Below, piece by piece: positions 33,721 to 47,383 of a stretch of 64,000 bases of DNA (its first letter is position 1; every line of letters begins with the position of its first letter). A program made the position numbers and the translations under genes. This DNA comes from Escherichia phage PNJ1809-36. Under the pieces are notes generated by a model. That model saw nothing but the letters and a program-made list of their open reading frames with translations. It was not told the DNA's origin and made no database searches. The stretch lies in the sequence record MT944117.1. The stretch is one strand, 5' to 3'.

Positions 33721-33847
33721 GAAATTGTTTAATATTCGTGAGAATCGTGATGGATCGTTCTCTGTAGTCAATGAGTTTAATGTTTCGGTTGGGACTTTTA
33801 TTACTAAACGTCAAGCAGAACAAGTAAGAGATACTTTAAACAAGTAA
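33713..33847 (+). CDS. small hypothetical protein (44 aa)
   Basis: strong SD GAAGGAGG + ATG 33713. Confidence 0.45.
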   Translation: MSKKLFNIRENRDGSFSVVNEFNVSVGTFITKRQAEQVRDTLNK

Positions 33848-33864
33848 ATTTTTAAGGGGGACTT

Positions 33865-34284
33865 ATGTTAGGTAAGATCAAAGCTTTTTTCAAACGTATT
33901 GTTGAAGGAAGTCCAACAGAAGGTGCATTAGGAAGATCTCTAACAGGAGAACCGCTTGCCATAATTTCTATCAGTCGGTATGGTGGATATTCAATTAAAC
34001 AAACACCTTTAGGTATAGAAGGTAGTATGCTTTCTTGGACAATATCTCAAGTTGGTGATAACAGGCTTGCAGCTATAGCATTGCTTCGTGGGGAGTATGA
34101 CTATTGTTTATCAGCGCCTTGTAAAAAGCATCTCATAGAGCACATTAGAGACAGAGTAGAAAGAGAAGGCGGATACTTCTTCGAAACTAAGAGAAACGAA
34201 CAAGGAACTCTTGACTTCACTAAGGTTTACTGGGACAATCATACTCGTCAAACTGTTGAACAACTTCTGGAGGAAAGATGTTAA
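33865..34284 (+). CDS. hypothetical protein (139 aa)
   Basis: SD AAGGGGG. Confidence 0.65.
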   Translation: MLGKIKAFFKRIVEGSPTEGALGRSLTGEPLAIISISRYGGYSIKQTPLGIEGSMLSWTISQVGDNRLAAIALLRGEYDYCLSAPCKKHLIEHIRDRVEREGGYFFETKRNEQGTLDFTKVYWDNHTRQTVEQLLEERC

Positions 34285-34487
34285 AAGCTTTTGCTGTATA
34301 CTCTACTGTAGGATTCTTTTATTGGATTATAGTTGTTGTTGGATGTTGGTTGGGTTCTTCTGTTGTGATGGGAGAATGGTTAACATACAATGTATTTGAA
34401 TGGGATGTAGTTTGTAGATCATTACTTGTTATATGGACTGCTATTGTTTGTTGGATAACTGTTAGTCTAACATTAGATCTATATTGA
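34278..34487 (+). CDS. small membrane protein (69 aa)
   Basis: two hydrophobic helices; start overlaps upstream stop. Confidence 0.5.
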   Translation: MLKAFAVYSTVGFFYWIIVVVGCWLGSSVVMGEWLTYNVFEWDVVCRSLLVIWTAIVCWITVSLTLDLY

Positions 34488-34496
34488 TTAATAGAT

Positions 34497-34573
34497 GGTA
34501 GATAGATGATCATAGTTTATCTACCTTCACTTACGTTTCATACCTCACTATCGTGAGTAACATGAAACATTAT
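34497..34573. repeat. nested inverted repeats in 360-bp intergenic gap
   Basis: GGTAGATA-N13-TATCTACC (34497-34525) and GTTTCAT-N15-ATGAAAC (~34545-34573). Confidence 0.5.
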
Positions 34574-34847
34574 TATATAGAAATCTACTACTCGCTATCG
34601 CTCGTAAACATATGTTTAGGGTACCATATTTTTTTGAAAAAGTCAATGCTGATTCACCTATCAATTATCTGTTTAAGATAAATCTTACCTATCAATCTAA
34701 CTCTTAACTAGTATTGCACCTATAGTAAGACTATTCCTATAGTTATTAACCCTCTTCTTCTGTAGAATGTAATTAGATCCTTGACAAACTCACAAAGCTT
34801 GTGTTACATTGTGTCTCACAAGTGAATAATACTGAACAGGAGGAAGA

Positions 34848-35063
34848 ATGAGTTCCAATTTTCTATACAAAGCAAAAGATTCACGAGATGGAGAGAACCA
34901 TTGGTGGTTGATCACAGAAGATGGTGTTATCATCCTACCGTGGGACGGAGAGACGAAAGTTCAAATACTAGAGAAAGTAAAAGGTGTTAGTTTTAATATT
35001 AGTCATGATATAACAACTTTCAAAGCTTTTGCTATGAATCCTAGTCTTGTTGCTGAATGGTAA
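34848..35063 (+). CDS. hypothetical protein (71 aa)
   Basis: SD ACAGGAGGAAG; possible TTGACA promoter ~34781. Confidence 0.6.
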   Translation: MSSNFLYKAKDSRDGENHWWLITEDGVIILPWDGETKVQILEKVKGVSFNISHDITTFKAFAMNPSLVAEW

Positions 35064-35076
35064 TCCAGGAGAAGAT

Positions 35077-35295
35077 ATGACTAAAATGTATGCAGCCGTT
35101 GATAAGCTGGATGGGTCTGATTCTGTTTTTATTTTGAATAAAATGGGTGTCTTAGTTTATGCCCGAACTTCTCAAAACATAGAGCACCAAGTGGAAGCAG
35201 CGCAAATTTTAGAGCAAATAACCCCTCCATACCTATATTCAAATGTTGAGCGTTTTAACGATGCACTTGGTCTGACATTAATAGCGGAGTGGTAA
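35077..35295 (+). CDS. hypothetical protein (72 aa)
   Basis: ATG 35077 after CAGGAGAAG. Confidence 0.55.
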   Translation: MTKMYAAVDKLDGSDSVFILNKMGVLVYARTSQNIEHQVEAAQILEQITPPYLYSNVERFNDALGLTLIAEW

Positions 35296-35297
35296 TA

Positions 35298-35495
35298 ATG
35301 GCGAAAATGTTAGCAATTGATGATGTTGTAACAATTACTACGTCCATACCTTGTCCTCCTATGCCTTGCCCCTATTGTGGTGGTTCAGGGTATGTTATGG
35401 CGGATGTAGGTCAAATCTACGAGTGTAATCCGTGCAAAACCACGGGTTATATCCAAATAGAATCAGAGGAGAAACACTATGAGCCAAAACGCTAA
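35298..35495 (+). CDS. small Cys-rich protein (65 aa)
   Basis: CPPMPCPYCGG...CNPC; ATG 35298. Confidence 0.55.
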   Translation: MAKMLAIDDVVTITTSIPCPPMPCPYCGGSGYVMADVGQIYECNPCKTTGYIQIESEEKHYEPKR

Positions 35496-35928
35496 AGAAA
35501 AAGAAGTAATCACGGTAATCCGTCAGATGGAAGGTGCCGAAAACAATGCTTTTGTTACTAAGATTCTTCTTAATATCTTTGAAGATGTTATTTTAAACAA
35601 TCCTGGTCATAAAGATTATCAGTATGATGTTATGATGGGTGCTTTGCTTGAGATTAACAAAAACACTTTTGCTGAATATGAGCAACACATGCTTTTACCA
35701 GAGGAAGATCAGGATTATTTGTTATCTGGTGCTTTAAGTGCACAAGAAAATTTCTACCACGTTCTTAATATGGCTTATGCAGATGAACTTGCTGTCTCCC
35801 TTGAAGAGCGGATTCAAATGGTTCGTGACGTAATGAATGAACAAATCCAAGAAGTTGAAGATCTGGTAGCAGAGCCTTTAGCAGAAATTCGTGCAGCTAT
35901 TGAAAAACAAAAAGGAACTCAATCATGA
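35479..35928 (+). CDS. hypothetical protein (149 aa)
   Basis: SD CAGAGGAGAAA. Confidence 0.65.
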   Translation: MSQNAKEKEVITVIRQMEGAENNAFVTKILLNIFEDVILNNPGHKDYQYDVMMGALLEINKNTFAEYEQHMLLPEEDQDYLLSGALSAQENFYHVLNMAYADELAVSLEERIQMVRDVMNEQIQEVEDLVAEPLAEIRAAIEKQKGTQS

Positions 35929-36092
35929 TGCAAGTAGGTGATGTGGTTTGTCTTAAAGGTGCAAACAAACAAATGACAGTAATAGAAAGTTATGGTGAAT
36001 CTTGTAAAGTAACTTGGTTTGATGAAAACGGCGAGTTGCAACACGCTATATTCGATCAAAAAGCTTTGAGGAAGGTTGAAGAAAAAGAATGA
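35925..36092 (+). CDS. small protein (55 aa), DUF2158-like
   Basis: VGDVVCLKGANKQMTV motif; ATGA overlaps on both sides. Confidence 0.45.
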   Translation: MMQVGDVVCLKGANKQMTVIESYGESCKVTWFDENGELQHAIFDQKALRKVEEKE

Positions 36093-36352
36093 GCCATCCG
36101 TCAATATTTTTCTGTTTTGTAGATCTTGAAAACGAGTCTTTAATCGTTGATAGTGAGGGTTACTTCACTTATTGGGAATCCGAGCACGAAACTATAAGTG
36201 TAGTGAAAGAAATTATGCAAACCAATCCAAACCTACCAGCACATAAGTACGGTATTGCAAAAGTGTTTGTTACTAAAACAGAGTACACAAAAGAGCGAAG
36301 CACTTTGTACCATAATATTGAAGTGATTCACTATTTCAAAGATGTTATTTAG
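36089..36352 (+). CDS. hypothetical protein (87 aa)
   Basis: ORF; ATGA overlap. Confidence 0.6.
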   Translation: MSHPSIFFCFVDLENESLIVDSEGYFTYWESEHETISVVKEIMQTNPNLPAHKYGIAKVFVTKTEYTKERSTLYHNIEVIHYFKDVI

Positions 36353-36360
36353 GAGGTTAT

Positions 36361-36969
36361 ATGGAAGAGAAGATTTGGGATGGTAAAGATCCTTTAGAAG
36401 TTGGACACGTAGCACGTGTCAAAAAATCTACTACAGGTCCTGGTTTTTCTGGTTTGTATCATATACCAGAAGAAGGTCAGCACGTTACAATTTTGGCTCG
36501 TGACAAACAAAACGGAGCAACGCCTGTGTGGATTGTTCGCTGGTATGACAAAGATCTTAACATTTGCTTGTCACCTATTATGGCTCATTTGCTGGAAGCC
36601 CCTTGCTCTGAAGAAGCTCTAATTTTTGTTTCGGCTTTTCAGAAAGCCACAGGTTTAACATTAGATGCAAAAGATGTGCAAAAAGCATTTGACATTATTC
36701 AGGAAGACAACGATACTACATCTAACGACGAACTGGTTGAAGTTACAATCTTATCTTCAGCAGATATCCGAGAGATTGATAATTGTGATTTTCCAATCAC
36801 ATTTAAAATGTCGCAGAAAGACATGCAGTCATCTGGAAGTTGTTTTGGTATACCTCGTTGGTTTTTTGATTCTATCAAAAATTCTACTACAGAGGGATCA
36901 GACTATGATCAAGATGACATGCTTTGGTTCTTAAAAAACCGAGAGATTGTTCTCTCACCACTTAAATAA
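36361..36969 (+). CDS. hypothetical protein (202 aa)
   Basis: SD AGGAGG. Confidence 0.7.
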   Translation: MEEKIWDGKDPLEVGHVARVKKSTTGPGFSGLYHIPEEGQHVTILARDKQNGATPVWIVRWYDKDLNICLSPIMAHLLEAPCSEEALIFVSAFQKATGLTLDAKDVQKAFDIIQEDNDTTSNDELVEVTILSSADIREIDNCDFPITFKMSQKDMQSSGSCFGIPRWFFDSIKNSTTEGSDYDQDDMLWFLKNREIVLSPLK

Positions 36970-36978
36970 GGAGAAATA

Positions 36979-37080
36979 ATGGTTTCATTTATCGTAGGTG
37001 TAGTTGTAGGCTATCTGATTAACAAATATCAAGACGTTATCACGGCAAAAGTAAAAGACATTTTAGACTCATCTAAATAA
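36979..37080 (+). CDS. small membrane peptide (33 aa)
   Basis: SD AAGGAGAAA + ATG 36979. Confidence 0.4.
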   Translation: MVSFIVGVVVGYLINKYQDVITAKVKDILDSSK

Positions 37081-37132
37081 TCTATCAAAGCTGCATCTTC
37101 AATAGGTGCAGCCTTTTAAAAGGAGATATGGC

Positions 37133-37306
37133 ATGACTAAACGCACTGATTTTAAATGTATGCATTGTGGGAAATCTTTTGGGGATCATCAAGCTCGCAC
37201 ATTCAACTGTCCACGTAAAGGTCGCGGAAATTTTAAAGGTTTTAATCCCGCACATGTTTATTCTCCAGATTACGATAAGCCAGAAGAAGAAAAATTTGTT
37301 ATTTAA
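37133..37306 (+). CDS. small zinc-ribbon-like protein (57 aa)
   Basis: CMHCG...CPRKG; SD AAAGGAG. Confidence 0.5.
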   Translation: MTKRTDFKCMHCGKSFGDHQARTFNCPRKGRGNFKGFNPAHVYSPDYDKPEEEKFVI

Positions 37307-37318
37307 TAAGGAGGTCAT

Positions 37319-37600
37319 ATGGAACTCGTTCAAGAATTGTATAATGCTTTAGGAGCAAAAGGAAAAGATTGGCCCGAACATGCGCTTATTGCTATAAGAG
37401 ACTCCGATGGTGAGATTAAGTTTTCAAGCGTAAGTAAAGAGCACATCGTAGAAACAAAACTGGGTATTTACATGCGTGGAACTTATTGCTTATTCAACAC
37501 CAGAATGGTAGAAGCTCCTGTTATTGAAAATGGGACAAAAGATTGCCCCACAATCGTAACAAAAGCTGAATATGAGAAGTTTTTCTACGCTAAGGCTTGA
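37319..37600 (+). CDS. hypothetical protein (93 aa)
   Basis: SD AAGGAGG. Confidence 0.65.
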   Translation: MELVQELYNALGAKGKDWPEHALIAIRDSDGEIKFSSVSKEHIVETKLGIYMRGTYCLFNTRMVEAPVIENGTKDCPTIVTKAEYEKFFYAKA

Positions 37601-37644
37601 CACAGGAACAATACTATAGGATAGTGATCCTATCGTAGCAATAG

Positions 37645-37667
37645 AACCCGCTTCGGCGGGTTTTTTC
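37645..37667 (+). terminator. rho-independent terminator (UUCG tetraloop)
   Basis: AACCCGC-TTCG-GCGGGTT followed by TTTTTT; same stem as 4993. Confidence 0.75.
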
Positions 37668-37691
37668 ATATCTGTAGCAATAGGAGGTCGT

Positions 37692-37922
37692 GTGTTAAAT
37701 AAAATCGAAGAAGGTTGTATGGCATTTTTGGTAGATAACCCGTTTCCCTTTATGGTTAAGGTCCATGTAGGAGAGTATTTAGGTTATGACGAATGGGATT
37801 GTAGTATCAATAGTGAAATGCACCACTACCAACCAACAATACTTAAGACGGATCAAATGGCGCGTATTACAGTAGAGGATGAATTGATCATCGAGTTATA
37901 CGAGAGAGCACTGCACAAGTAA
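37692..37922 (+). CDS. hypothetical protein (76 aa), GTG start
   Basis: AGGAGG 4 nt upstream of GTG 37692. Confidence 0.55.
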   Translation: MLNKIEEGCMAFLVDNPFPFMVKVHVGEYLGYDEWDCSINSEMHHYQPTILKTDQMARITVEDELIIELYERALHK

Positions 37923-37965
37923 GCTAGAACCCACCTAAATCGAACAGAGACGCTCTAAAATAGAA

Positions 37966-37995
37966 AAGGCACCCACTTGGGTGCCTTTGTTTTAT
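37966..37995. terminator. bidirectional terminator at convergence of plus and minus blocks
   Basis: GGCACCCA-CTT-TGGGTGCC flanked by A-run upstream and T-run downstream. Confidence 0.7.
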
Positions 37996-38264
37996 TCTTC
38001 GTTAGATTGCGTCTCAGACGCGTTAAATTCGGTTTCAGTACAACTTGCTAGGTAACTTATATTTTGCATCACTACAACTACAGGTGTTTGAAGTTTATCT
38101 TCTAGCCCCGCAGCCACTTGAGCCAAGGCATTATCAATATTTGATTTCCTAACGCCTGTTCCATGTCCTGTTGCCAAGTAAAGATTACCTTCCCCTTTTT
38201 GTGTAGCATTAGCAAAGTAGTAAACGTAATGTGCAAGGTAGTAATCACGGATTTCTTCAGTCAT
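37992..38264 (-). CDS. hypothetical protein (90 aa)
   Basis: ORF; last gene of minus-strand block. Confidence 0.6.
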   Translation of the reverse strand: MTEEIRDYYLAHYVYYFANATQKGEGNLYLATGHGTGVRKSNIDNALAQVAAGLEDKLQTPVVVVMQNISYLASCTETEFNASETQSNEE

Positions 38265-38281
38265 TTTATTCTCCTAATAAG

Positions 38282-38300
38282 AAAGGGGCCGAAGCCCCTT
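38282..38300 (-). terminator. UUCG-tetraloop hairpin (partial terminator or mRNA stabiliser)
   Basis: minus strand GGGGC-TTCG-GCCCC followed by TTTCTTATT. Confidence 0.5.
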
Positions 38301-38307
38301 GAGTGGT

Positions 38308-39108
38308 TTATTTGTTTAAGTGGTCTTCGACCATTTTAATGAAACCTTCATTGCTGAAGGCTGTTGCAGCTTTTTCTCGGTAAACAAAAACTCCACGATC
38401 TTCATAGAGAAGTGTTTCTTCGTAATTAACTCCAGGGTTAACTACAACCATTTTTGTCCCGATATTAAGAGCAGGAAAAAGCTCCCAGTTAAAATTGATA
38501 ACTTGATTAGAGCAACCCACTACAATCACCATATCTTGAGCCGTCAAGCCGTCTAAGATGTGGTACATATCGTTATACAATGGGGCAGTCTCCCCAAAGA
38601 ACACTACATTGGGCTTCACATACTTGTAATCATCCACATCGATAGCAGCATAGCCAACATCTTTGATGATTCTATTGTCTACGATCACTTCAGGCAGGAA
38701 GCCGTGAACATGTAGAACATCTTCATGAACAACACCCGCTTGTTCCAGAAGATCATCTACGTTTGTCGTGATGTTGATAACACGATCACAGCCGTACTCT
38801 TGAAACCATTCCGCGATCTGGTAATGCGCAGCGTTAGGAGACACACTATCCATCTCTACGCGACGTTTATTGTAGAAGTCATGAGTTTTACGGTAGAGGT
38901 TGTATCCCTCTGCATCTAATCCACCAACAGCGCCAGGAACACACTGTTCTTGCTGGTAGCCAGCACGGAAATTGAAAATGTCACACACTTCAGAAAGGTC
39001 GTATTCATCCCACAAAGCTTTACCACTTTCTGTGTCAGTGCGGAAAGTACGAATACCGCTATCGGCGCTTAAGCCAGCGCCGCTAATCACTATTAATCGT
39101 CTTGGCAT
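38308..39108 (-). CDS. Sir2-family (sirtuin-like) NAD-dependent protein
   Basis: GAGLSADSGIRTFR, TTNVDDL, HVHG, VVFFGE, GCS motifs; no CxxC zinc-ribbon pairs; SD GAGGAGG. Confidence 0.8.
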   Translation of the reverse strand: MPRRLIVISGAGLSADSGIRTFRTDTESGKALWDEYDLSEVCDIFNFRAGYQQEQCVPGAVGGLDAEGYNLYRKTHDFYNKRRVEMDSVSPNAAHYQIAEWFQEYGCDRVINITTNVDDLLEQAGVVHEDVLHVHGFLPEVIVDNRIIKDVGYAAIDVDDYKYVKPNVVFFGETAPLYNDMYHILDGLTAQDMVIVVGCSNQVINFNWELFPALNIGTKMVVVNPGVNYEETLLYEDRGVFVYREKAATAFSNEGFIKMVEDHLNK

Positions 39109-39578
39109 TCTTCCTCCTCAAATGGATCATAAGAATCGTACTCGTAAGTATCATCTTCTGAAAATTCTACTTCGAAATAAATATCAAACTCTGCAAACAG
39201 ACGTAGGATGTTAGACATGCTGTAATAATTATCGCAGGCAGATTCAGCTTCATAGTAAACATAAAGCAAATGGTTAGCCTTATCATCTTCCAAATATTTC
39301 CCGTCTGCATACGCATAGTCTGCATATGCTTTACCTGCATCTTCCACAAGAGAACGATCAAGCAGAGTAGGAAATGGTTTCTCTTTTTCTTTTAGTTTGC
39401 TCACCAACCAATGTGCAATATCATTCCATTCTGCATCCATACCACTAAAGCAACTTGCTTCTTCTCCAAAAGAAGCTTCTCCTAAATCGCCACTAATACG
39501 AACAACATTAGATGAACTATAGCCACACGTTTCACAATCAGAGTAACTATTATGCACATTGACATTTACTTGAAACAT
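39093..39578 (-). CDS. hypothetical acidic protein (161 aa)
   Basis: SD AGGAGGG; Asp/Glu/Tyr-rich; overlaps Sir2-like start by 16 nt. Confidence 0.65.
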   Translation of the reverse strand: MFQVNVNVHNSYSDCETCGYSSSNVVRISGDLGEASFGEEASCFSGMDAEWNDIAHWLVSKLKEKEKPFPTLLDRSLVEDAGKAYADYAYADGKYLEDDKANHLLYVYYEAESACDNYYSMSNILRLFAEFDIYFEVEFSEDDTYEYDSYDPFEEEECQDD

Positions 39579-39596
39579 ATTCCCTCCTATAAAAGA

Positions 39597-39627
39597 AAAG
39601 CCCCCTGAAACAGGAGGCTTTGTTCAG
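39597..39627 (-). terminator. putative terminator hairpin
   Basis: minus strand GCCTCCTG-TTTC-CAGGGGGC followed by TTTTCTTTT. Confidence 0.45.
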
Positions 39628-39636
39628 ATATCTGCA

Positions 39637-40290
39637 CTATACCAGACTTTGAAGGTATTTGTCAAGTGCTTCTTGATCACCTTGACAAACATAGCAACGG
39701 AAGTCTTGAGCAGAAGGTTCTTTGTCCTCGTCCCAATCCCAATAGACAGTACCTTTATAGCGTGAGCCTGGGAACTCGAAGTATGCCACATGAGTAATAT
39801 GGTGTGGGCCACCCCAAAACTCTGTAAAAGTAAATTGAGGATACGCTGCTTTAACTGTATTTTCAAACCAAGTTTTACGATCTAATGCTTCGTTTATAAA
39901 ATAAGCATGGCGTTCCATTTCATCCCACGTTTTCCAGACACTTCTCTCATCAGGAGAAAAGACAAGCCATTCTGGAAGGTAGAGAGTGTCATAGTAATCA
40001 TCATATTCGATCTCGGAGACGCACGAAGCTGACTCCTCCAGTTTTGAGTAATCAAAAGCAGAATATACCCACCAACCATCTTCCAGTAACGCTTTGATAG
40101 GGACGAAGCCTTTATCAGCATATTGATCGAATTGTTTGACACGGTGGCTTGTGCAGTCTTCAAACTCACATTCTAAACGATATGCACCTTTTCGACGAGC
40201 CTCAAGACCGTGTGCACTGAAAATAACAACACTTCCTTCACCATCATTACGATCTACTTGATAAGCAACTACTTGTTTTGAATTTGACAT
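39637..40290 (-). CDS. hypothetical protein (217 aa)
   Basis: SD AAGGAG; TAATG overlap with upstream gene. Confidence 0.7.
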   Translation of the reverse strand: MSNSKQVVAYQVDRNDGEGSVVIFSAHGLEARRKGAYRLECEFEDCTSHRVKQFDQYADKGFVPIKALLEDGWWVYSAFDYSKLEESASCVSEIEYDDYYDTLYLPEWLVFSPDERSVWKTWDEMERHAYFINEALDRKTWFENTVKAAYPQFTFTEFWGGPHHITHVAYFEFPGSRYKGTVYWDWDEDKEPSAQDFRCYVCQGDQEALDKYLQSLV

Positions 40291-40973
40291 TATTTCTCCT
40301 TATCTAGAAGATTGTTAGACAAAAACACTGCACGAGCAAAACCACGTGCGGTTAAGGATCTAAGTTGTTTTGTTTTTGCACTAGCTCCACCTAAGCTTTT
40401 CCAACCCCAGAAGCAGCCTATATGATCTACTGGTTTCTTCACTGGTTGAACAAAACCATTGCCGTGCCAAATACAAGTTTTCTTTGTATACCCATCACGG
40501 GTAGGCATTTTAGGATGAAAGCTTCCTTCCTCTTCAAACAAATACCCACCATACTCATAAGGATCAAAGTAAAAATCGGGTTTACGCCATAAGGTTGAAA
40601 GTTTACCTACTGGGTTCTCAATCATCCAAGGAACATTATATTTGTTACCCAAAGATTCCACTACACGAATATTAGCTAAAGCTTCATCTAGTTCCTCTGT
40701 GCTACGTTCGTGTTTGCTACCACTACCTGCTAACATAGTGCAAGGTGGAAATCCAAAAATAATATCGGGTTTAGGTATCCCATGATCTTCAGGGTTGAAT
40801 GTAGAATCTATCCAGGCATTCACATAGGTTATGTTTGGGTGCTCCATCCTAACCTCGTATTTACCGTGATCCCCTTCATCAGCGTTTACACAAAAACACT
40901 TGTGACCTGCTTCGGCATAACGTAACACCATAATCCCAGATCCGTCAAACATAGACAAAACTGTTTTACTCAT
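40290..40973 (-). CDS. minimal C5-cytosine methyltransferase-like protein
   Basis: motif I SMFDGSG, motif IV GFPPC, motif VI ENPVG in canonical order and spacing; only 227 aa; ATG 40973 after GGAGGGG. Confidence 0.55.
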   Translation of the reverse strand: MSKTVLSMFDGSGIMVLRYAEAGHKCFCVNADEGDHGKYEVRMEHPNITYVNAWIDSTFNPEDHGIPKPDIIFGFPPCTMLAGSGSKHERSTEELDEALANIRVVESLGNKYNVPWMIENPVGKLSTLWRKPDFYFDPYEYGGYLFEEEGSFHPKMPTRDGYTKKTCIWHGNGFVQPVKKPVDHIGCFWGWKSLGGASAKTKQLRSLTARGFARAVFLSNNLLDKEK

Positions 40974-41361
40974 TACCCCTCCATTCAAGACAAGCCATAA
41001 CTTTACGCCAATCACTTTCTGTAAGAAAAATCTCGTTTGCTTTCTTCCACAAATCTAAATCGTGAAGGGTTGGAATACGATATGTTAGTTCACAGAATCT
41101 ATGCTCTTCTTCTGTAATATAACCAAAATGCAGAGCCACATCGTGAAACCAACACCAACCATGCATCTCTCGAACAACATGGTCATGCTGAGACATTGTT
41201 TTATGCCGTAAACCTAACCAACAAGGAACAGATACTTTAGTAGTCTTTAATCTGTGATCAACAGTATTAGAGTATTCAATAATAGCTGTCAGTTTCAATC
41301 GTGCTTTTTCTAAATCCTCATGGGTCACTTTGAAATAACTTTCTGAAAGATATCCACACAT
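40966..41361 (-). CDS. hypothetical protein (131 aa)
   Basis: ATG 41361 after AAGGAGG; listed 41379 start is TTG. Confidence 0.6.
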   Translation of the reverse strand: MCGYLSESYFKVTHEDLEKARLKLTAIIEYSNTVDHRLKTTKVSVPCWLGLRHKTMSQHDHVVREMHGWCWFHDVALHFGYITEEEHRFCELTYRIPTLHDLDLWKKANEIFLTESDWRKVMACLEWRGNE

Positions 41362-41362
41362 A

Positions 41363-42304
41363 TTAATAACCTCCTTCAAAACGCTTAACTACATGTTGAT
41401 TAGCTTTAAAACGTTCAACATAGTCGTTTTCGCCCATGTTTTCATATAGCTTAGTAACAACATAAAAGTTTTCCCAAGCATATTCCCTAAACCAACCACT
41501 AGTGATGGATGTGCAGACTTTAGATAAAGCCATTATAAAACTTTGCTTAGGGGTTGGACCTCCGATCTCTTCACCGAAAGGAATTTGTGAACGTTCCAAA
41601 GCCAAAACACACGCTTCTTCATAAACACCTAACAGGCGCACATGTTTTGGTTGAGCAAAAAACTTTTCTTTGCTGGTCATAACTTCACTTCCATCTTTCA
41701 TATAAGATTTATATGCTGGAGCATCCATTAACGCGATTGCTTCATGGATAGAATCATGATCATAAACATACGGAACCTCGTCACCTTTAAAGAAGTCTTT
41801 ACTTTTTACGTTTAAGTTCGGATGAGAGTAAGTGTATGTTTCTTTCTCACGTAACTCATAAATACTCTTAAGATTTTCTGGGATCTTTGCGCCCAGTGAC
41901 CGCATGAAATGAATATCTTTCATAGTTTTAAAGAAGTGAGGACTATCCTTTTTAAAACGATGACTCATTTTAAGAAGGTAGAGCACATCTAAAGGAGCAA
42001 CAACATGTCCAGCGTAAGTTCGACGAACATCATCAGAATCTTCACAATAACTAATCAAAGCTTCTGTGCTATCTCCTTGAGAAGCAATATCATATTCCAA
42101 ATGTGCACCAGCTATCATTTTGACGTGGCCTTTGTTCCCTTTACGTTCTACAAGTTCAACAAACTCGTCTTGAGAGAACATTTTTGATAATTCTTCCCAC
42201 TCTTGTTCTGTACACAGGTAATCTAAATCTACACAAGGGCGATACAAGTCTTTTCCCATGTCCATAGCATGAATTTGTAATGCACGGCTACCAATTAACA
42301 CCAT
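41363..42304 (-). CDS. hypothetical protein (313 aa), possible nucleotidyltransferase-like N-terminus
   Basis: SD AGAGGAG; IGSRAL...VDLDY resembles a GS...DxD NTase motif with atypical spacing. Confidence 0.7.
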   Translation of the reverse strand: MVLIGSRALQIHAMDMGKDLYRPCVDLDYLCTEQEWEELSKMFSQDEFVELVERKGNKGHVKMIAGAHLEYDIASQGDSTEALISYCEDSDDVRRTYAGHVVAPLDVLYLLKMSHRFKKDSPHFFKTMKDIHFMRSLGAKIPENLKSIYELREKETYTYSHPNLNVKSKDFFKGDEVPYVYDHDSIHEAIALMDAPAYKSYMKDGSEVMTSKEKFFAQPKHVRLLGVYEEACVLALERSQIPFGEEIGGPTPKQSFIMALSKVCTSITSGWFREYAWENFYVVTKLYENMGENDYVERFKANQHVVKRFEGGY

Positions 42305-42334
42305 AATATTTCTCCTCTATTGGTTGATAGGTTA

Positions 42335-42363
42335 AGTTTATCAAGCTTCCAGATTCCTGTCAA
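42335..42363 (-). promoter_or_regulatory. sigma70-type promoter on minus strand
   Basis: minus strand TTGACA (42358-42363), 17-nt spacer, TAAACT (42335-42340). Confidence 0.6.
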
Positions 42364-42388
42364 TAAAAAACCCGCCGAAGCGGGTTAT
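42364..42388 (-). terminator. rho-independent terminator (UUCG tetraloop)
   Basis: minus strand AACCCGC-TTCG-GCGGGTT followed by TTTTTTATT. Confidence 0.7.
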
Positions 42389-42394
42389 TATTTA

Positions 42395-42667
42395 CTAACA
42401 CATTGAGGAAGAAGAGATCCAAACACCTCTTGTGGTTAAACCATTTTCATCCAACTCTACACCATAATCTTCACAAATGAAATCAATATAGTGATCTGCG
42501 GCTGGCGTTCCTGTAGGGTAATAAGTTTCTCCGTTACCGTAGTCACCTATCCAAGCTTGTTCCTGAAACTGTTCACAGAGTTCTTCAATTTCCTTACGAA
42601 ACTTTCTTTGTGCTTGTTCCATCTCTTTAACTTTCTTTTTTATCAGCAGTTCGCCTTCAGACTCCAC
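42395..42667 (-). CDS. hypothetical protein (90 aa), GTG start
   Basis: AAGGAG 5 nt upstream of GTG. Confidence 0.6.
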   Translation of the reverse strand: MESEGELLIKKKVKEMEQAQRKFRKEIEELCEQFQEQAWIGDYGNGETYYPTGTPAADHYIDFICEDYGVELDENGLTTRGVWISSSSMC

Positions 42668-42676
42668 AATCTCTCC

Positions 42677-42895
42677 TTAACAGCTACTACTGTGCCAAAC
42701 GCCTTGAGAATTAACGACGAAACCATCATCACCTTCACCATAACAAGAAGAGGATTGCCAATCTTCAAAACAGATTGCGTCATCTTCTAAGCTAAGACCA
42801 AAACCAGCATCTTCGGCTTCTTTTGTAAGTTCGTCCACTAAAGCCATAATAGCTTGGGCTTTTTCAGTTAATTCTTCAATGTTACGATAACTCAT
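42677..42895 (-). CDS. hypothetical acidic protein (72 aa)
   Basis: ATG 42895 after GAGGAG; TAATG overlap. Confidence 0.55.
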   Translation of the reverse strand: MSYRNIEELTEKAQAIMALVDELTKEAEDAGFGLSLEDDAICFEDWQSSSCYGEGDDGFVVNSQGVWHSSSC

Positions 42896-43164
42896 TAGTA
42901 TTTCTCCTCTGGTTGGAAAACGGAACGACAGGCCCACATAGAAGCTTCTTTCAACTTAGTCTTTGCTATTGAAATTTGGTCAAGGCGGGTGGATATATTG
43001 GTAGACTCTTCCAAATCTTCACAATCATCCAGTTCAGCCCACAATTCAGACATTAGAGCATCAAAGATTAATCCTAATCGAACTTCAGCATCTTTAATAG
43101 CATTCACTTTACCAATTTTGTCATCGGTATGCGGTTTATAACCTTTGATATCTTCGATTCCCAC
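42895..43164 (-). CDS. hypothetical protein (89 aa), GTG start
   Basis: AGGAGG 4 nt upstream of GTG 43164; listed 43203 TTG start lacks SD. Confidence 0.5.
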   Translation of the reverse strand: MGIEDIKGYKPHTDDKIGKVNAIKDAEVRLGLIFDALMSELWAELDDCEDLEESTNISTRLDQISIAKTKLKEASMWACRSVFQPEEKY

Positions 43165-43175
43165 TTTACCTCCTA

Positions 43176-43373
43176 TTAACAACTTAAAGAAGATGGATGC
43201 CAATTTGTTCCAGTATTCTCATTTTCATCTTCTGGATCATAATAACCACCCATCCCATATTCAGGAGAGAAACTGAAACCTTCACCAGTCTCGTCTGCTA
43301 ACTGTTCTGCTTCCGCTAAAGCCTCATAAGCTGCTTTTACGGCTTCTTCTACTGTTTTAAACTTGGTCGTCAT
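43176..43373 (-). CDS. hypothetical acidic protein (65 aa)
   Basis: SD GGAGAGGAG. Confidence 0.6.
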   Translation of the reverse strand: MTTKFKTVEEAVKAAYEALAEAEQLADETGEGFSFSPEYGMGGYYDPEDENENTGTNWHPSSLSC

Positions 43374-43647
43374 AAAATTTCTCCTCTCCTAAAGACATGT
43401 TGACATGAAATGCGCGGTATGTAAATTCGTTGTCCGTTGTGTTAGAATAAAACTCAAATTGAACAACACCGTCTTGAGAAGACAAATACATGCCAATTTG
43501 AACTGTTCCTTCTGGTACCAGGTAAGCATACTCTGGACGTAGTGTTACATTGTAAAAATAAAGTTCCCCAACACCCATTTCATCCCAAGCTTCCCAAGCG
43601 GTAACGAAGTTACTTTCAAAACTTGTTACTGATCCGAACTCTGCCAT
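43357..43647 (-). CDS. hypothetical protein (96 aa)
   Basis: SD GAGGAGG. Confidence 0.65.
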   Translation of the reverse strand: MAEFGSVTSFESNFVTAWEAWDEMGVGELYFYNVTLRPEYAYLVPEGTVQIGMYLSSQDGVVQFEFYSNTTDNEFTYRAFHVNMSLGEEKFYDDQV

Positions 43648-44138
43648 AAAACCTCCTCAATCTTGTAGTTTGACTCCATCTCCAACACATTTCCACGAAC
43701 ATCTCTCCGAAGAAAGGCATAAGCTTTATTAGGTATTGTAGACTCATATTTAACCATATCTGGCACAGCAAAAGATACTACTACTCCTGCTGGGCTTCTG
43801 TCAAGAGCCTTATTAATATTTCTAAGGATATCGTTAGCCAAGATTTCTGCCAATTCTCCAAGAACAGTTTCGGTTATATCTTTATATCCCATTAAATATT
43901 TGTTGATATCTTTCATCTCTGTATTGTTCAGAGTATAGTCTAAAGGATAAAAATTCAAAGAGGAGTCACTTTTATGTGTCCACATGAAATGCACCCGATC
44001 CGAGCAGAATCGTAACCCTCTACGAAGAATATCTTCTACAACAGGGAGAATTTCTTTTGTCACATCATTAACCATGTTGTAATCTAAGATTTCTGCCAAG
44101 TTTGTTCTTTGTTCACCACGTTTACGTCTAGGAATCAC
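43626..44138 (-). CDS. hypothetical protein (170 aa)
   Basis: ORF; start codon uncertain (GTG 44138 or ATG 44075). Confidence 0.55.
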   Translation of the reverse strand: MIPRRKRGEQRTNLAEILDYNMVNDVTKEILPVVEDILRRGLRFCSDRVHFMWTHKSDSSLNFYPLDYTLNNTEMKDINKYLMGYKDITETVLGELAEILANDILRNINKALDRSPAGVVVSFAVPDMVKYESTIPNKAYAFLRRDVRGNVLEMESNYKIEEVLWQSSDQ

Positions 44139-44709
44139 TTGTTATTGCCCTCATTACCAAAGGTCGTAGAAAATCGTAAATCTCTTGTTTTGTTTTCCCA
44201 CGAATGTTTAAACAAGGAACATTATTGGCTTTAGCTATCTTCCAAGCCGTAGCTGTTCCACCTTTTGCATCTCCATGTTTATCAGTATTAGCACAAGCCA
44301 ACAAGAAACATGATGGAGCAGGATTCTCCAAATCTCTGCCTAACACTTGATGCACATTACGTTGGTGCAATTTTCTAGCACCCTGCTTAAGCTTTTCATA
44401 AGCTGGGTGAACATCTTTGATCCATTGCACAGAGATAGCATAGTTCATTGTATCTGGTTTTGCAAGAACAATAACATCACCTGGAATCTGATTACCTTTG
44501 AAATTTTCCCAAGGAACATAAATTTCCTTGTTAGTAGGATTTTCAGACTCTTGGACACCTGTTTCAAAAGCAGAATCACTACCCTCTGCCTTACCAGACC
44601 GTAATTTAAACCCAAGGTTTGAAAGCCATTTCCCTATGCCTACCATCAAAGCCCACTCTTCTTCAGATATGTCCCTACTTCCAACTCCCGTATAGAACAG
44701 TTCTGCCAT
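44128..44709 (-). CDS. Rossmann-fold protein, SLOG/DprA-like (tentative)
   Basis: YTGVGSR and SGKAEGSDSAFETG motifs; ATG 44709 after GAGGTGA. Confidence 0.4.
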   Translation of the reverse strand: MAELFYTGVGSRDISEEEWALMVGIGKWLSNLGFKLRSGKAEGSDSAFETGVQESENPTNKEIYVPWENFKGNQIPGDVIVLAKPDTMNYAISVQWIKDVHPAYEKLKQGARKLHQRNVHQVLGRDLENPAPSCFLLACANTDKHGDAKGGTATAWKIAKANNVPCLNIRGKTKQEIYDFLRPLVMRAITSDS

Positions 44710-44716
44710 AATCACC

Positions 44717-45025
44717 TCAACAAGTAATTTCAAAAGGTGTATAGGGTTCCGTATTTCTCATAATCCAAGGACTGCTAGGATTGCTCGGATCATAAGGACC
44801 AAAAGGTTTTATGGTAGGTTGTGTTTCTTTCTTCTGAATCTCTTCAAAAATACGACGAAGTTCAGAATATTCTTGATCCACCATAAGATTCGGTGCATCT
44901 GATTCTACAGTTTGCAGGTTATCTTCCTTAAGAACAATCTCACGAACAAGATTAACATCTTCTGTTTCTAAGATAACTTCTTTACGGATATTACCTACAC
45001 TTTGAATAATTGTAATTTTATACAT
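44717..45025 (-). CDS. hypothetical protein (102 aa)
   Basis: SD GAGGAGG. Confidence 0.65.
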   Translation of the reverse strand: MYKITIIQSVGNIRKEVILETEDVNLVREIVLKEDNLQTVESDAPNLMVDQEYSELRRIFEEIQKKETQPTIKPFGPYDPSNPSSPWIMRNTEPYTPFEITC

Positions 45026-45768
45026 TAATCCTCCTCAAGAGTTGAATAAAATTGAAGACCACCATCCATATCGAAATAAGCAAATGTTAAGTTATTATTG
45101 AACACAGATCCAGTATCCATATAAACACGATTCGCATTGATAATAGGTGTTTTTACATAAGAGTGTCCATGAAACACATAATCCACACCCATCACAACAG
45201 GAAGTTTCATTCCCTCTTTAGCACAGTCTACCATATCTCTGTCCCACATAAGTGCTTCAGCAAAACGGTTTTCCTGTGTTTTTGTCATCTTCGAAATGTA
45301 TTCTGGAAGATCTGTTACAGGGAGATATTCCAAAGAAGATGGATACCCACCATGAATAAACGCAAGTTTCATGCCTCTGTAGTTAACAATGAGAACAACA
45401 GGTAAATCTTCTGTCATCATTGCTAAGGCTGTAGCTCCTTCTTCACCACATTCTTCAAATACCGTATATCCTCCATTTTGATACCAACACTCGTAGTAGC
45501 TACGATCTCCTTCCAGCATACCTTTAATCATCATGTCTTCATGATTGCCACGAATAGCGTAGCGATTGTGTTTACGAGTAAATTCTAAAACACAACGAAA
45601 GTTTTGCTTTCCACGATCAGTAAGATCTCCTAAAGATACAACCACATCTGTATCTCGGATACCTAACTTTGCCTTTCCTTTTTCATACAGATTATAACAA
45701 CCATGTAGATCTCCAATTATAAAAAGATCTTGATCGCTTTTAACAGTAATTTCTCTATGTATGATCAC
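45025..45768 (-). CDS. PPP-family metallophosphatase (Ser/Thr protein phosphatase-like)
   Basis: GDLHGCY, GDLTDRG, RGNHE motifs; GTG start after GAGGAGG. Confidence 0.8.
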   Translation of the reverse strand: MIIHREITVKSDQDLFIIGDLHGCYNLYEKGKAKLGIRDTDVVVSLGDLTDRGKQNFRCVLEFTRKHNRYAIRGNHEDMMIKGMLEGDRSYYECWYQNGGYTVFEECGEEGATALAMMTEDLPVVLIVNYRGMKLAFIHGGYPSSLEYLPVTDLPEYISKMTKTQENRFAEALMWDRDMVDCAKEGMKLPVVMGVDYVFHGHSYVKTPIINANRVYMDTGSVFNNNLTFAYFDMDGGLQFYSTLEED

Positions 45769-46094
45769 TTATCCTCCTCAAAATCTAAGAAAATAAAAAT
45801 ATTCACCTTTCCTTCAATCTCTTGTTCTAAAACAAGATCGGCAAATTCTGCATAAGCTTTCTCTTCAACTTTTTCAATATGCTCTGCGGCATCTTTAAAA
45901 GGCGTATCCCCATCCACCTTTACTAATAAGAAAAGAGATCGCATTTCTACGCTTTTACTGTTACGAGGAAGGAAATCTACAGCTTCAACAATTCTCCAAC
46001 CCAAATAGCCAGGGGTTTTATGAATCTCTCCTAAATACTTTTCTAATATTTTACGACCCTCGTCGATAAGGGCTTGTTCTGTAGTAATTTCCAT
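45765..46094 (-). CDS. hypothetical protein (109 aa)
   Basis: SD GAGGAGGAAGG. Confidence 0.65.
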   Translation of the reverse strand: MEITTEQALIDEGRKILEKYLGEIHKTPGYLGWRIVEAVDFLPRNSKSVEMRSLFLLVKVDGDTPFKDAAEHIEKVEEKAYAEFADLVLEQEIEGKVNIFIFLDFEEDK

Positions 46095-46104
46095 TCCTTC
46101 CTCC

Positions 46105-46677
46105 TCAAATTATTAACGAAACCGCATGACTAAATCTTGGTTCAGATATAACCTCTGCTACAGTAACATATGTATCGTGCAGCCAAAAAGATTCTACTCT
46201 ACAAACACAAATACCGTTGATAATGAAATCTACACAGGCTTTATTATTTTCGCACACTTGTTGACTATAAACAACCCCTAAAGAGTCATAAAGTGATCTC
46301 ACTGTTGCTACCATTTCATCTGTTTCGTCTTCCTGTGAAACAAAGAAAACGAATACAGACAAGTTATTAGCGAAAGTATTGCTATTCTCTACCTCAACCG
46401 ACTTACAAGGTAAAAAGGAGTAATATTTACCATTAGGTATCAATTTCGCCTCAACCTGGTTAAGTATGCTTTGAGATGGTTTTGTTACATAAAAAAGATT
46501 TTCTGTTGGGTTTTCAACATTACTCCTTACTATGCAACGAGTGGGGTTCGAAGAATCAAAAACATGATCGAAATCGACACACACAGGTAAGTTAACAACT
46601 TTAAACTTTTTGCTAAGAATGCTTACTGCTGTAAAAATCAAACCAGCATTTATTTTGCCAGTGAAAGTTGAACGCAT
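46105..46677 (-). CDS. hypothetical protein (190 aa)
   Basis: ATG 46677 after GAGGAG; listed 46695 start has no SD. Confidence 0.6.
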   Translation of the reverse strand: MRSTFTGKINAGLIFTAVSILSKKFKVVNLPVCVDFDHVFDSSNPTRCIVRSNVENPTENLFYVTKPSQSILNQVEAKLIPNGKYYSFLPCKSVEVENSNTFANNLSVFVFFVSQEDETDEMVATVRSLYDSLGVVYSQQVCENNKACVDFIINGICVCRVESFWLHDTYVTVAEVISEPRFSHAVSLII

Positions 46678-46691
46678 AACTACTCCTCGGA

Positions 46692-46886
46692 TCATTCTAC
46701 CAAAGAGAATTCCGCCTCTTCCAGGTAGATTACAGACCTTGTTGCATGATATTTAACGCTCCAGAAATTACCTTCGCGCCGTAAAAGTATCTCATTCACA
46801 TCAAGATTGCTTAGAAAAACCATATAACTTAAAGCTTGTTGACGCGTTGAGAATTGTTTCTCTAAAAGTTCTTCTCCGCTCTGCAT
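46692..46886 (-). CDS. hypothetical protein (64 aa)
   Basis: SD AAGGAGGG. Confidence 0.6.
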   Translation of the reverse strand: MQSGEELLEKQFSTRQQALSYMVFLSNLDVNEILLRREGNFWSVKYHATRSVIYLEEAEFSLVE

Positions 46887-46931
46887 AATCCCTCCTTAAA
46901 ATACTCCCTCCGAAAAGGGAGTATAAGTATA

Positions 46932-47371: not shown

Positions 47372-47383
47372 AGTTCACACTCC

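What the first reader, a model, noticed from the sequence alone, without database searches (positions are those of the whole stretch)
40290..40973. Minimal C5-methyltransferase-like protein lacking a target-recognition domain
Motifs I (FDGSG), IV (GFPPC with catalytic Cys) and VI (ENPVG) of C5-cytosine methyltransferases are present in canonical order, but the protein is only 227 aa with no room for a TRD or motifs IX/X. It could be a stripped-down DNA MTase or a pyrimidine-C5 modifying enzyme acting on nucleotides or with a partner, which fits the nearby sugar and nucleotide genes.
Basis: partly seen in the sequence, partly recalled or inferred. Interest (0 to 1): 0.65.

Follow-up and report, generated by a model that had tools for sequence, protein, structure and literature searches.

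The report
Compact phage DNA cytosine-C5 methyltransferase
This is a real gene for an unusually small (227 aa) phage DNA cytosine-C5 methyltransferase that lacks the usual DNA-reading domain, but the family is widespread, already annotated, and a 50%-identical relative has been shown to make 5-methylcytosine, so it is largely ordinary.

Summary
Window 40290..40973 (minus strand) encodes a 227-aa protein with FDGSG, FPPC (Cys78) and ENPVG in canonical order.

The window is a phAPEC8-like coliphage (Phapecoctavirus). The protein matches PHROG 757 'DNA methyltransferase' over its full length (E 2e-84). Homologues occur in 1487 phage records and are often annotated Dcm or DNA methyltransferase.

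The spacer after motif VIII is 31-51 aa family-wide, against 94-148 aa in six canonical enzymes. A conserved C-terminal block with a motif-IX-like RSLTPR and a helix is present.

The protein is 50% identical to the KarlJaspers/K42 phage Dcm, which makes 5mC and triggers retron Ec86. All four residues mutated in that study are conserved here. No partner gene is conserved across phage lineages, and the sugar and nucleotide genes lie more than 10 kb away.

Verdict: a known kind of orphan phage DNA methyltransferase. Its target sequence is not determined.

The parts
40290..40973 (-). CDS for a 227-aa compact orphan DNA cytosine-C5 methyltransferase (PHROG 757; homologue of phAPEC8 gp194)
40935..40949 (-). 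Motif I, FDGSG (aa 9-13), the SAM-binding loop after strand beta-1
   Evidence: Coordinates. D10, G11, S12 and G13 are invariant in 51 close relatives. hhalign aligns it with the FAGIGG motif of canonical Dcm-type enzymes.
40740..40751 (-). Motif IV, FPPC (aa 75-78), with the catalytic nucleophile Cys78
   Evidence: Coordinates. C78 is invariant in 87/87 diverse members. It aligns with the canonical FPC(Q). It corresponds to C82 of K42/KarlJaspers Dcm, which was mutated in the inactive variant. The loop after it (aa 81-86) is the only low-confidence part of the model.
40605..40619 (-). Motif VI, ENPVG (aa 119-123), with Glu119
   Evidence: Coordinates. E119 and P121 are invariant. It aligns with the canonical ENV. 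It corresponds to E128 of K42 Dcm.
40467..40490 (-). Motif VIII-like strand YTKKTCIW (aa 162-169); K164 and K165 stand in place of the canonical QxRxR arginines
   Evidence: Y162 and W169 are invariant; K164 and T166 are >=90% conserved. K164/K165 correspond to K175/K176 of K42 Dcm. Model strand 166-171. The assignment to motif VIII rests on position and the published superposition, not on a significant sequence alignment.
40383..40466 (-). Short spacer (aa 170-197) occupying the place of the target-recognition domain; only aa 183-197 is variable in the family
   Evidence: The spacer from motif VIII to the C-terminal block is 31-51 aa (median 39) in 87 members, against 94-148 aa in six canonical C5-MTases. 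Mean column entropy is 3.0 for aa 183-197 and 1.7 for its flanks. It is well ordered in the model (pLDDT 96-98 for aa 171-190).
40314..40382 (-). Conserved C-terminal block SAKTKQLRSLTARGFARAVFLSN (aa 198-220): helix, turn, amphipathic helix. It has a motif-IX-like R-S-x-T-P-R and probably fills the structural slot of motif X.
   Evidence: R205, P209, G211 and A215 are >=90% conserved. The only local profile similarity is to canonical motif IX RRLTPRE. Model helices 199-205 and 210-219. 189 of 227 residues superpose on DNMT3B. The motif X role is inferred.
39597..42386 (-). Putative four-gene transcription unit holding the methyltransferase: 41363..42304 (DUF7275/DUF7277), 40966..41379, 40290..40973 (MTase), 39637..40290
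   Evidence: A terminator-like hairpin at 42386-42369 is followed by a promoter-like site at 42363-42335. A strong terminator-like hairpin lies at 39621-39597. Start and stop codons overlap (ATGAGTAA upstream, TAATG downstream). These are consensus scans only. The three neighbours are not conserved with the MTase in other phages.

Best explanation
The gene encodes a stand-alone (orphan) SAM-dependent DNA cytosine-C5 methyltransferase of a compact, phage-borne family of about 200-260 aa (PHROG 757, labelled 'Dcm-like' in several phage annotations).

Chemistry, inferred from the conserved residues and established C5-MTase chemistry:
- The FDGSG loop binds SAM.
- Cys78 of FPPC attacks C6 of a flipped-out cytosine.
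- Glu119 of ENPVG holds and protonates the base.
- K164/K165 take the role of the motif VIII arginines.
- The methyl group is transferred to C5.

The protein is essentially only the catalytic (large) domain. The small domain (TRD, and probably most of motif IX) is replaced by a spacer of about 28 aa. A conserved C-terminal helix closes the fold. DNA must therefore be read by catalytic-domain loops and a variable loop of about 15 aa, possibly with oligomerisation as in DNMT3. This point is speculative.

The enzyme acts after replication on phage DNA, and collaterally on host or retron DNA. Its likely role is to blunt host restriction, and it is potentially sensed by retron Ec86/Eco1-type defences.

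The target sequence is not established. CCWGG is the leading candidate from work on relatives, at roughly 40-50% confidence.
For: Shown here:
- Full-length match to PHROG 757 'DNA methyltransferase', E 2e-84.
- hhalign places motifs I, IV and VI in register with E. coli Dcm and five phage C5-MTases (aa 3-127, E 2.4e-4).
- C78, E119, P121, Y162 and W169 are invariant in 87 diverse members.
- 50% identity over the full length (E 1e-71) to KarlJaspers bas06_0055. That is a 711-bp gene, the same length as the dcm gene of phage K42. C78, E119, K164 and K165 match the residues mutated in the inactive variant there.
- 52% identity to Pantoea phage AAS23 gp52.
- No conserved neighbour across five lineages, so it is a self-sufficient gene.
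- In some uncultured phages the same compact fold is fused to helicase-like proteins, which fits DNA as the substrate.
- CCWGG is not avoided in the window (observed/expected 1.17), whereas GGCC, CCGG and GTAC are at 0.30-0.39. This is weak and circumstantial.

From the literature:
- K42 Dcm expressed alone in E. coli raises 5mC in msDNA by LC-MS. The C82A/E128A/K175A/K176A mutant does not.
- dcm-disrupting mutations let the phage escape retron Ec86.
- Changing CCTGG in the msDNA abolishes defence (bioRxiv 10.1101/2023.08.16.553469; published as Cell Rep 2024 43:114857).
- AAS23 DNA behaved as Dcm-methylated in restriction analysis that included EcoRII. HHpred linked gp52 to the C5-MTase 3ME5 at 99.7% probability (PMC8004638).
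Against: - Nothing has been measured on this protein or on phAPEC8-like phage DNA.
- Sequence similarity to the defining Pfam family is below threshold: PF00145 scores 11.6 bits against a cut-off of 22. Only 1 of 87 members hits it at E<0.01. Profile searches against PDB sequences find nothing significant.
- The C-terminal 100 aa cannot be aligned significantly to canonical enzymes. The motif VIII, IX and X assignments are therefore inferred.
- The CCWGG specificity of the K42 enzyme was assumed by analogy with host Dcm and not mapped. The dcm+ host did not itself trigger the retron, which argues the phage enzyme differs in specificity or substrate preference.
- The AAS23 result could reflect a host Dcm.
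- The BASEL study found no simple link between these genes and restriction resistance (PMC8594841).
Confidence: 0.85

Rival explanations
1. It transfers a group other than methyl to cytosine C5. The main candidate is carboxymethyl from carboxy-SAM, as the phage enzyme CmoX does, giving a handle for hypermodification.
Against: The 50%-identical K42 enzyme gave 5mC by LC-MS in E. coli, where Cx-SAM is available, whereas wild-type CmoX accepts only Cx-SAM. An Arg at the 'GN' position also occurs in DNMT3A (GRSW), which is a true methyltransferase and the closest structural neighbour. A PPC motif also occurs in methylating enzymes (own knowledge: DNMT1). The phAPEC8 annotation lists no CmoA, ligase or dioxygenase beside the gene. 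The equivalence of Arg210 to HhaI Asn304 is not established.
Confidence: 0.04
2. It modifies free pyrimidine nucleotides, or it works only with a phage partner that supplies target recognition and is linked to the phage's sugar and nucleotide genes.
For: There is no TRD. The phage does carry dTDP-rhamnose synthesis, ribonucleotide reductase and a thymidylate-synthase-like gene. Split C5-MTases with separate subunits exist (own knowledge: M.AquI, M.EcoHK31I).
Against: The fold is that of DNA C5-MTases, not the thymidylate synthase or dCMP hydroxymethylase fold that acts on free nucleotides. The K42 homologue works when expressed alone. None of the six neighbours recurs near the homologue in rV5, PVP-SE1, Krischvirus ELT3, Klebsiella phage CBB98 or KarlJaspers. 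The sugar and nucleotide genes are more than 10 kb away and outside the terminator-bounded unit.
Confidence: 0.03
3. It is an RNA (tRNA) m5C methyltransferase like DNMT2/TRDMT1, or it prefers single-stranded or hairpin nucleic acid over phage duplex DNA.
Confidence: 0.04
4. It is a catalytically dead relic or a SAM- or DNA-binding regulator rather than an enzyme.
For: Canonical motifs are degenerate: PPCT instead of PCQ, ENP instead of ENV, KK instead of RxR, and no recognisable GN motif X. Phage C5-MTs lacking motifs VIII-X were inactive in another study (PMC8256090).
Against: Cys78, Glu119 and other core positions are invariant across 87 members at a mean column identity of 29%. A homologue with the same degenerate motifs is active, and its activity depends on those residues.
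Confidence: 0.03

Closest known systems
Phage K42 / KarlJaspers (Bas06) 'Dcm-like C5 cytosine methyltransferase', the trigger of retron Ec86 (Eco1)
   Same: It belongs to the same family and has the same architecture. Identity is 50% over the full length (236 vs 227 aa, E 1e-71). The catalytic Cys, Glu and Lys-Lys are all conserved. Both are stand-alone genes in lytic coliphages.
   Different: The phage lineages differ (Drexlerviridae siphovirus vs Phapecoctavirus myovirus) and so do the neighbours. The variable loop at aa 183-197 differs (DHIGCFWGW vs KEDDKDNPGW), so specificity may differ. Whether this phage triggers the retron is untested.
Pantoea phage AAS23 gp52 and the other PHROG 757 members in Drexlerviridae, Webervirus, Vequintavirinae and Krischvirus (RB49p189-like)
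   Same: Identity is 36-65%, the proteins are 200-260 aa, and the motifs are the same. AAS23 DNA was reported as Dcm-type methylated.
   Different: None of these has a mapped recognition sequence in the literature I could search.
DNMT3A/DNMT3B catalytic domains (eukaryotic de novo DNA methyltransferases)
   Different: Sequence identity is only 17-19%. DNMT3 domains are still about 285 aa, keep motifs IX and X, and work as dimers or tetramers with regulatory domains. Oligomerisation of the phage enzyme is unknown.
Canonical bacterial type II C5-methyltransferases (M.HhaI, M.HaeIII, E. coli Dcm / M.EcoRII; Pfam PF00145)
   Different: There is no small domain or TRD: the spacer is 31-51 aa against 94-148 aa. 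There is no recognisable GN motif X. Motif residues are variant. The protein falls below the Pfam threshold. There is no paired restriction enzyme or Vsr. The name 'Dcm' on these phage genes does not mean orthology with E. coli Dcm.
CmoX, the phage DNA cytosine C5-carboxymethyltransferase (PDB 8yf3)
   Different: CmoX is about 350 aa with a TRD and is GC-specific. It has SPPC plus Arg350 and is linked to CmoA and a ligase. The relative of the present protein yields 5mC.

Membership tests
C5 DNA methyltransferases (Pfam PF00145 / DNMT-Dcm superfamily) | Motif I F-x-G-x-G SAM-binding loop after strand beta-1 | tested here: met
   FDGSG at aa 9-13. It is invariant in close relatives and aligned to the canonical FAGIGG by hhalign. 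The wider family has LFDxTG.
C5 DNA methyltransferases (Pfam PF00145 / DNMT-Dcm superfamily) | Motif IV Pro-Cys with the catalytic cysteine | tested here: met
   FPPC, with Cys78 invariant in 87/87 members. It is aligned to the canonical FPCQ. The following residue is Thr, not Gln.
C5 DNA methyltransferases (Pfam PF00145 / DNMT-Dcm superfamily) | Motif VI Glu-Asn-Val | tested here: met
   E119-N120-P121. E119 and P121 are invariant. It is aligned to the canonical ENV. Val is replaced by Pro.
C5 DNA methyltransferases (Pfam PF00145 / DNMT-Dcm superfamily) | Motif VIII Q-x-R-x-R | tested here: inconclusive
   The sequence Y162-T-K164-K165-T166 lies on the equivalent strand, with Lys in place of Arg. 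No significant sequence alignment covers this region. The equivalence rests on the published K42/DNMT3A superposition.
C5 DNA methyltransferases (Pfam PF00145 / DNMT-Dcm superfamily) | Variable target-recognition domain (small domain) between motifs VIII and IX | tested here: not met
   The spacer is 31-51 aa (median 39) in 87 family members, against 94-148 aa in six canonical enzymes. In the model it contains only one short helix.
C5 DNA methyltransferases (Pfam PF00145 / DNMT-Dcm superfamily) | Motif IX (R-x-L-T-x-R-E) and motif X (G-N-x-V) | tested here: inconclusive
   The C-terminal block IRSxTPRGFAxAVF gives a short, non-significant profile match to motif IX (E 0.029; score 15.8). It gives no match to motif X or to the DNMT3A C-terminus. 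There is no GN dipeptide. A terminal amphipathic helix is present. Model coordinates could not be obtained for superposition.
C5 DNA methyltransferases (Pfam PF00145 / DNMT-Dcm superfamily) | Score at or above the Pfam gathering threshold | tested here: not met
   The score is 11.6 bits against a cut-off of 22, E 0.18, covering aa 4-92 only. Only 1 of 87 members hits at E<=0.01. There is no NCBIfam hit.
C5 DNA methyltransferases (Pfam PF00145 / DNMT-Dcm superfamily) | Catalytic-domain fold of C5-MTases | tested here: met
C5 DNA methyltransferases (Pfam PF00145 / DNMT-Dcm superfamily) | Formation of 5-methylcytosine in DNA from SAM | not testable with these tools
   This is known only for relatives: K42 Dcm (LC-MS) and, indirectly, AAS23.
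Compact phage 'Dcm-like' methyltransferases (PHROG 757) | Full-length match to the family profile and the family's size of about 200-260 aa | tested here: met
   phrog_757 at E 2.1e-84, aa 1-225 matching profile positions 13-223 of 247. Family lengths are 202-261 aa, median 234. Identity to characterised or annotated members is 50-52%.
E. coli Dcm / M.EcoRII (CCWGG-specific) | Orthology with Dcm (full-length similarity, TRD, linkage to vsr) and CCWGG specificity | tested here: not met
   hhalign aligns only aa 3-127, E 2.4e-4. There is no TRD and no vsr-like neighbour. Specificity is untested. Non-avoidance of CCWGG is compatible with CCWGG methylation but does not diagnose it.
CmoX carboxymethyltransferases | SPPC motif, Arg replacing the motif X Asn, and linkage to CmoA or a ligase | tested here: inconclusive
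   The protein has FPPC, not SPPC. Arg210 is conserved but its structural equivalence is unproven. No CmoA or ligase is annotated nearby in phAPEC8. The homologue yields 5mC.

The most novel reading that the evidence does not exclude
This family may be the smallest natural active DNA C5-methyltransferase architecture: a bare catalytic domain that reads DNA without any TRD. Recognition would use the catalytic loop, a family-specific conserved insert (aa 134-160) and a variable loop of about 15 aa, perhaps as a DNMT3-like dimer. Its specificity would be short, relaxed or structure-dependent, and different from host Dcm. That would explain why it, and not host Dcm, sets off retron Ec86. It would also make the protein a useful minimal scaffold for engineered methylation.
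Probability: 0.3. Interest if true: 0.5.

Novelty: already known. Interest (0 to 1): 0.3.

Why it matters
For annotation, this gene can be called a DNA cytosine-C5 methyltransferase with good confidence. It should not be equated with host Dcm or linked to the phage's sugar genes.

For biology, genes of this family are very common in coliphages and Klebsiella phages used for therapy. They probably affect sensitivity to restriction systems and to methylation-sensing defences such as retron Ec86/Eco1.

The open and modestly interesting question is how an enzyme with no target-recognition domain selects its sites. I could find no mapped recognition sequence for any family member.

Tried and rejected
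- Sequence searches against PDB chains found nothing significant beyond a marginal N-terminal M.HaeIII/DNMT2 match. I tried the single protein, the 51-sequence profile, the 87-sequence profile and the C-terminal 69 aa alone.
- NCBIfam gave no hit.
- hhalign against a self-built set of canonical enzymes (E. coli Dcm plus five phage C5-MTases) aligned only motifs I-IV with the shallow profile. With the deeper profile it aligned motifs I-VI.
- I tried to decide whether the C-terminal block is motif IX or motif X. Cut-down profiles gave a weak preference for motif IX and nonsense alignments to motif X and to the DNMT3A C-terminus. My hand alignment of RGF to the RSW of DNMT3A is therefore unsupported by sequence, and I leave the question open.
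- Model coordinates are not exposed to the scripting sandbox, so no residue-level superposition was possible.
- I looked for a conserved partner gene among the neighbours. None was found.
- I looked for published methylomes or recognition sequences for phAPEC8-like, rV5-like or T1-like phages. Nothing specific turned up.
- The published Cell Reports version of the retron paper is not held in the library.
- The Druantia preprint's 5mC mentions concern host DNA only.
- The TET-associated phage C5-MT clade (PMC8256090) is a different family, of normal size and GpC-specific. I rejected it as the closest relative.

Full report
**Observation**

The minus strand of the window carries an ORF at 40290..40973. 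It has an ATG start, 227 codons and a stop. A GGAGG ribosome-binding site sits just upstream (AATGGAGGGGTA-ATG). Homologues begin at the same Met, so the longer GTG-start ORF listed to 41015 is unlikely. FDGSG (aa 9-13), FPPC with Cys78 (aa 75-78) and ENPVG (aa 119-123) are present in that order.

**Where the window comes from**

The 5-kb region around the gene is 99.9% identical to Escherichia phage vB_EcoM_ASO2A and 96% identical to phAPEC8 (Phapecoctavirus, Stephanstirmvirinae). In RefSeq phAPEC8 the orthologue is gp194, already annotated 'DNA methyltransferase'. A 99.6%-identical copy in phage tuntematon is annotated 'Dcm'.

**Family**

The protein matches PHROG 757 'DNA methyltransferase' over its whole length (E 2e-84). 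tblastn finds homologues in 1487 phage records, mainly from Escherichia, Klebsiella, Salmonella and Shigella. They span Drexlerviridae, Webervirus, Vequintavirinae and Krischvirus, down to about 30% identity in Xanthomonas and Rhizobium phages.

A profile search of 1.84 billion cluster representatives gives 1908 hits at E<=1e-3. Nearly all full-length hits are 200-260 aa. In 87 selected members the length is 202-261 aa, median 234. The small size is therefore a conserved property of a large family and not a truncation.

**Relation to canonical C5-methyltransferases**

By sequence the link is weak:
- Pfam PF00145 scores 11.6 bits against a cut-off of 22 and covers only aa 4-92.
- Only 1 of 87 members reaches E<=0.01.
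- NCBIfam has nothing.
- HMM searches against PDB sequences give nothing significant.
- hhalign against E. coli Dcm plus five phage C5-MTases (alignment) aligns aa 3-127 to Dcm 87-232 with motifs I, IV and VI in register. It reaches only E 2.4e-4 and 44% probability.

By structure the link is clear:
- An AlphaFold2 model built on 51 relatives has pLDDT 89.4 and pTM 0.88. The only low-confidence stretch is aa 81-86, immediately after the catalytic Cys, where C5-MTases have their mobile catalytic loop.
- Foldseek against the PDB puts DNMT3A/3B first (E 4e-8).
- An independent HHpred result for the 52%-identical AAS23 gp52 reports 99.7% probability to the C5-MTase 3ME5 (PMC8004638).

**Is the TRD really missing?**

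Yes. The distance from the motif VIII-like strand (YTKKTCIW, aa 162-169) to the conserved C-terminal block is 31-51 aa (median 39) in 87 family members. The distance from motif VIII to motif IX is 94-148 aa in the six canonical enzymes.

**Motifs IX and X**

That is only partly right. Residues 198-220 (SAKTKQLRSLTARGFARAVFLSN) form a strongly conserved block (R205, P209, G211 and A215 at >=90%). The model predicts it as helix, turn, amphipathic helix.

Its only local profile similarity is to canonical motif IX, IRSxTPR against RRLTPRE. The match is short and not significant. It shows no similarity to motif X or to the DNMT3A C-terminus (DNMT3A sequence verified).

Because 189 of 227 residues superpose on DNMT3B, the terminal helices must have structural counterparts. 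I infer that the last helix fills the slot that the motif X helix fills in canonical enzymes. I could not obtain coordinates to check this.

**Experimental anchor from relatives**

The protein is 50% identical over its full length (E 1e-71) to bas06_0055 of phage KarlJaspers. That gene is 711 bp and annotated 'Dcm-like C5 cytosine methyltransferase'.

Wang et al. (bioRxiv 10.1101/2023.08.16.553469; published as Cell Rep 2024 43:114857) worked with phage K42, which is 95% identical to KarlJaspers. They reported the following:
- All four retron-Ec86 escape mutants disrupted the 711-bp dcm gene or its upstream region.
- Expressing Dcm alone activated the retron.
- msDNA from Dcm-expressing cells had high 5mC by LC-MS.
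- The C82A/E128A/K175A/K176A mutant was inactive.

In the pairwise alignment those four residues are Cys78, Glu119, Lys164 and Lys165 here.

The CCWGG specificity in that paper was assumed from host Dcm. It was supported only by loss of defence when CCTGG in the msDNA was mutated. The host used is dcm+ and does not self-activate the retron, so the phage enzyme probably differs from host Dcm in specificity or substrate preference.

The 52%-identical AAS23 gp52 comes from a phage whose DNA behaved as Dcm-methylated in a restriction analysis that included EcoRII. A host contribution was not excluded there.

**Context**

Consensus scans suggest a four-gene unit on the minus strand. It runs from a terminator and promoter pair at about 42386-42335 to a strong terminator-like hairpin at 39621-39597. 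The genes are:
- 41363..42304, a DUF7275/DUF7277 protein
- 40966..41379, 137 aa
- 40290..40973, the methyltransferase
- 39637..40290, 217 aa

Start and stop codons overlap. A Sir2-like gene follows in the next unit.

None of the six flanking genes has a homologue within 4 kb of the methyltransferase in rV5, PVP-SE1, Krischvirus ELT3 or Klebsiella phage CBB98, nor in the first 50 kb of KarlJaspers. The gene therefore travels alone and has no conserved partner.

In the window, CCWGG is not under-represented (observed/expected 1.17). GGCC, CCGG and GTAC are at 0.30-0.39, and several 6-bp palindromes are absent. This fits CCWGG being covered by methylation but does not prove it.

**Rivals**

- *Action on free nucleotides, or dependence on a partner.* This is contradicted by the fold, by the activity of the homologue expressed alone, and by the lack of conserved neighbours.
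- *A tRNA (DNMT2-like) role.* Not excluded, but less supported.
- *A dead enzyme.* Also not excluded, but less supported.

**Verdict**

This is a compact orphan phage DNA cytosine-C5 methyltransferase. It belongs to a large, already annotated family with an experimentally characterised member.

The more exotic functional ideas are not supported.

Two things remain unknown: the recognition sequence, and how recognition works without a TRD.

Noticed in passing
window 47384..47893 (-): A second very small methyltransferase-like gene of 169 aa with an NPPF (amino-methyltransferase motif IV) signature. It matches only the middle of PHROG 799 'DNA methyltransferase' (profile positions 206-373 of 458). 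It is the homologue of phAPEC8 gp177. It may be another minimal or partial DNA N-methyltransferase.
   Followed up: partly
window about 51310..54590 and about 59890..60890 (placed by a +14179 offset from the phAPEC8 annotation; not re-checked in the window): There is a four-gene dTDP-rhamnose-type nucleotide-sugar pathway (thymidylyltransferase, 3,5-epimerase, two epimerase/dehydratases) inside the nucleotide-metabolism region. There is also an unusually long (333 aa) 'thymidylate synthase'. Together these could point to a sugar-based DNA or surface modification unrelated to the methyltransferase.
   Followed up: no
window 1..64000: Short palindromes are strongly avoided: GTAC, GGCC, CCGG and CTAG at observed/expected 0.3-0.5, and no GGATCC, CTGCAG, CGATCG, GGCGCC or TCCGGA at all. 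GATC, GCGC and CCWGG are not avoided.
   Followed up: partly
window 38308..39108 (-), 44128..44733 (-), 45025..45768 (-): A Sir2-family protein (Pfam SIR2, E 3e-20), a DprA-like/SLOG protein (PHROG 768) and a NinI-like Ser/Thr phosphatase lie in the same early-gene region. The phatase call rests on the phAPEC8 annotation only. These may be counter-defence or host-takeover genes.
   Followed up: partly
window 41363..42304 (-): The first gene of the putative unit holding the methyltransferase is a 313-aa protein with DUF7277 and DUF7275 domains (E 8e-14 and 1e-75). Its function is unknown.
   Followed up: no
L015 (Salmonella phage PVP-SE1) 3965..4693 and 4761..5369: PVP-SE1 carries two adjacent genes, both annotated as similar to RB49p189, the family of this methyltransferase. 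My tblastn at 1e-3 detected only the first. The second may be a diverged tandem paralogue.
   Followed up: no
BFVD entries A0A6J5SE15 (1397 aa) and A0A6J5NPY6 (1126 aa): In some uncultured phages the same compact methyltransferase fold (TM 0.63-0.66, 25-27% identity) is one domain of very large helicase/UvrB-like proteins.
   Followed up: no
phage records: Five records labelled 'Campylobacter phage' match this Phapecoctavirus DNA at megablast level. About 36 'Campylobacter phage' records carry a homologue; one listed record (A139) is 62% identical. These look like mislabelled or contaminant enterobacterial phage sequences.
   Followed up: no
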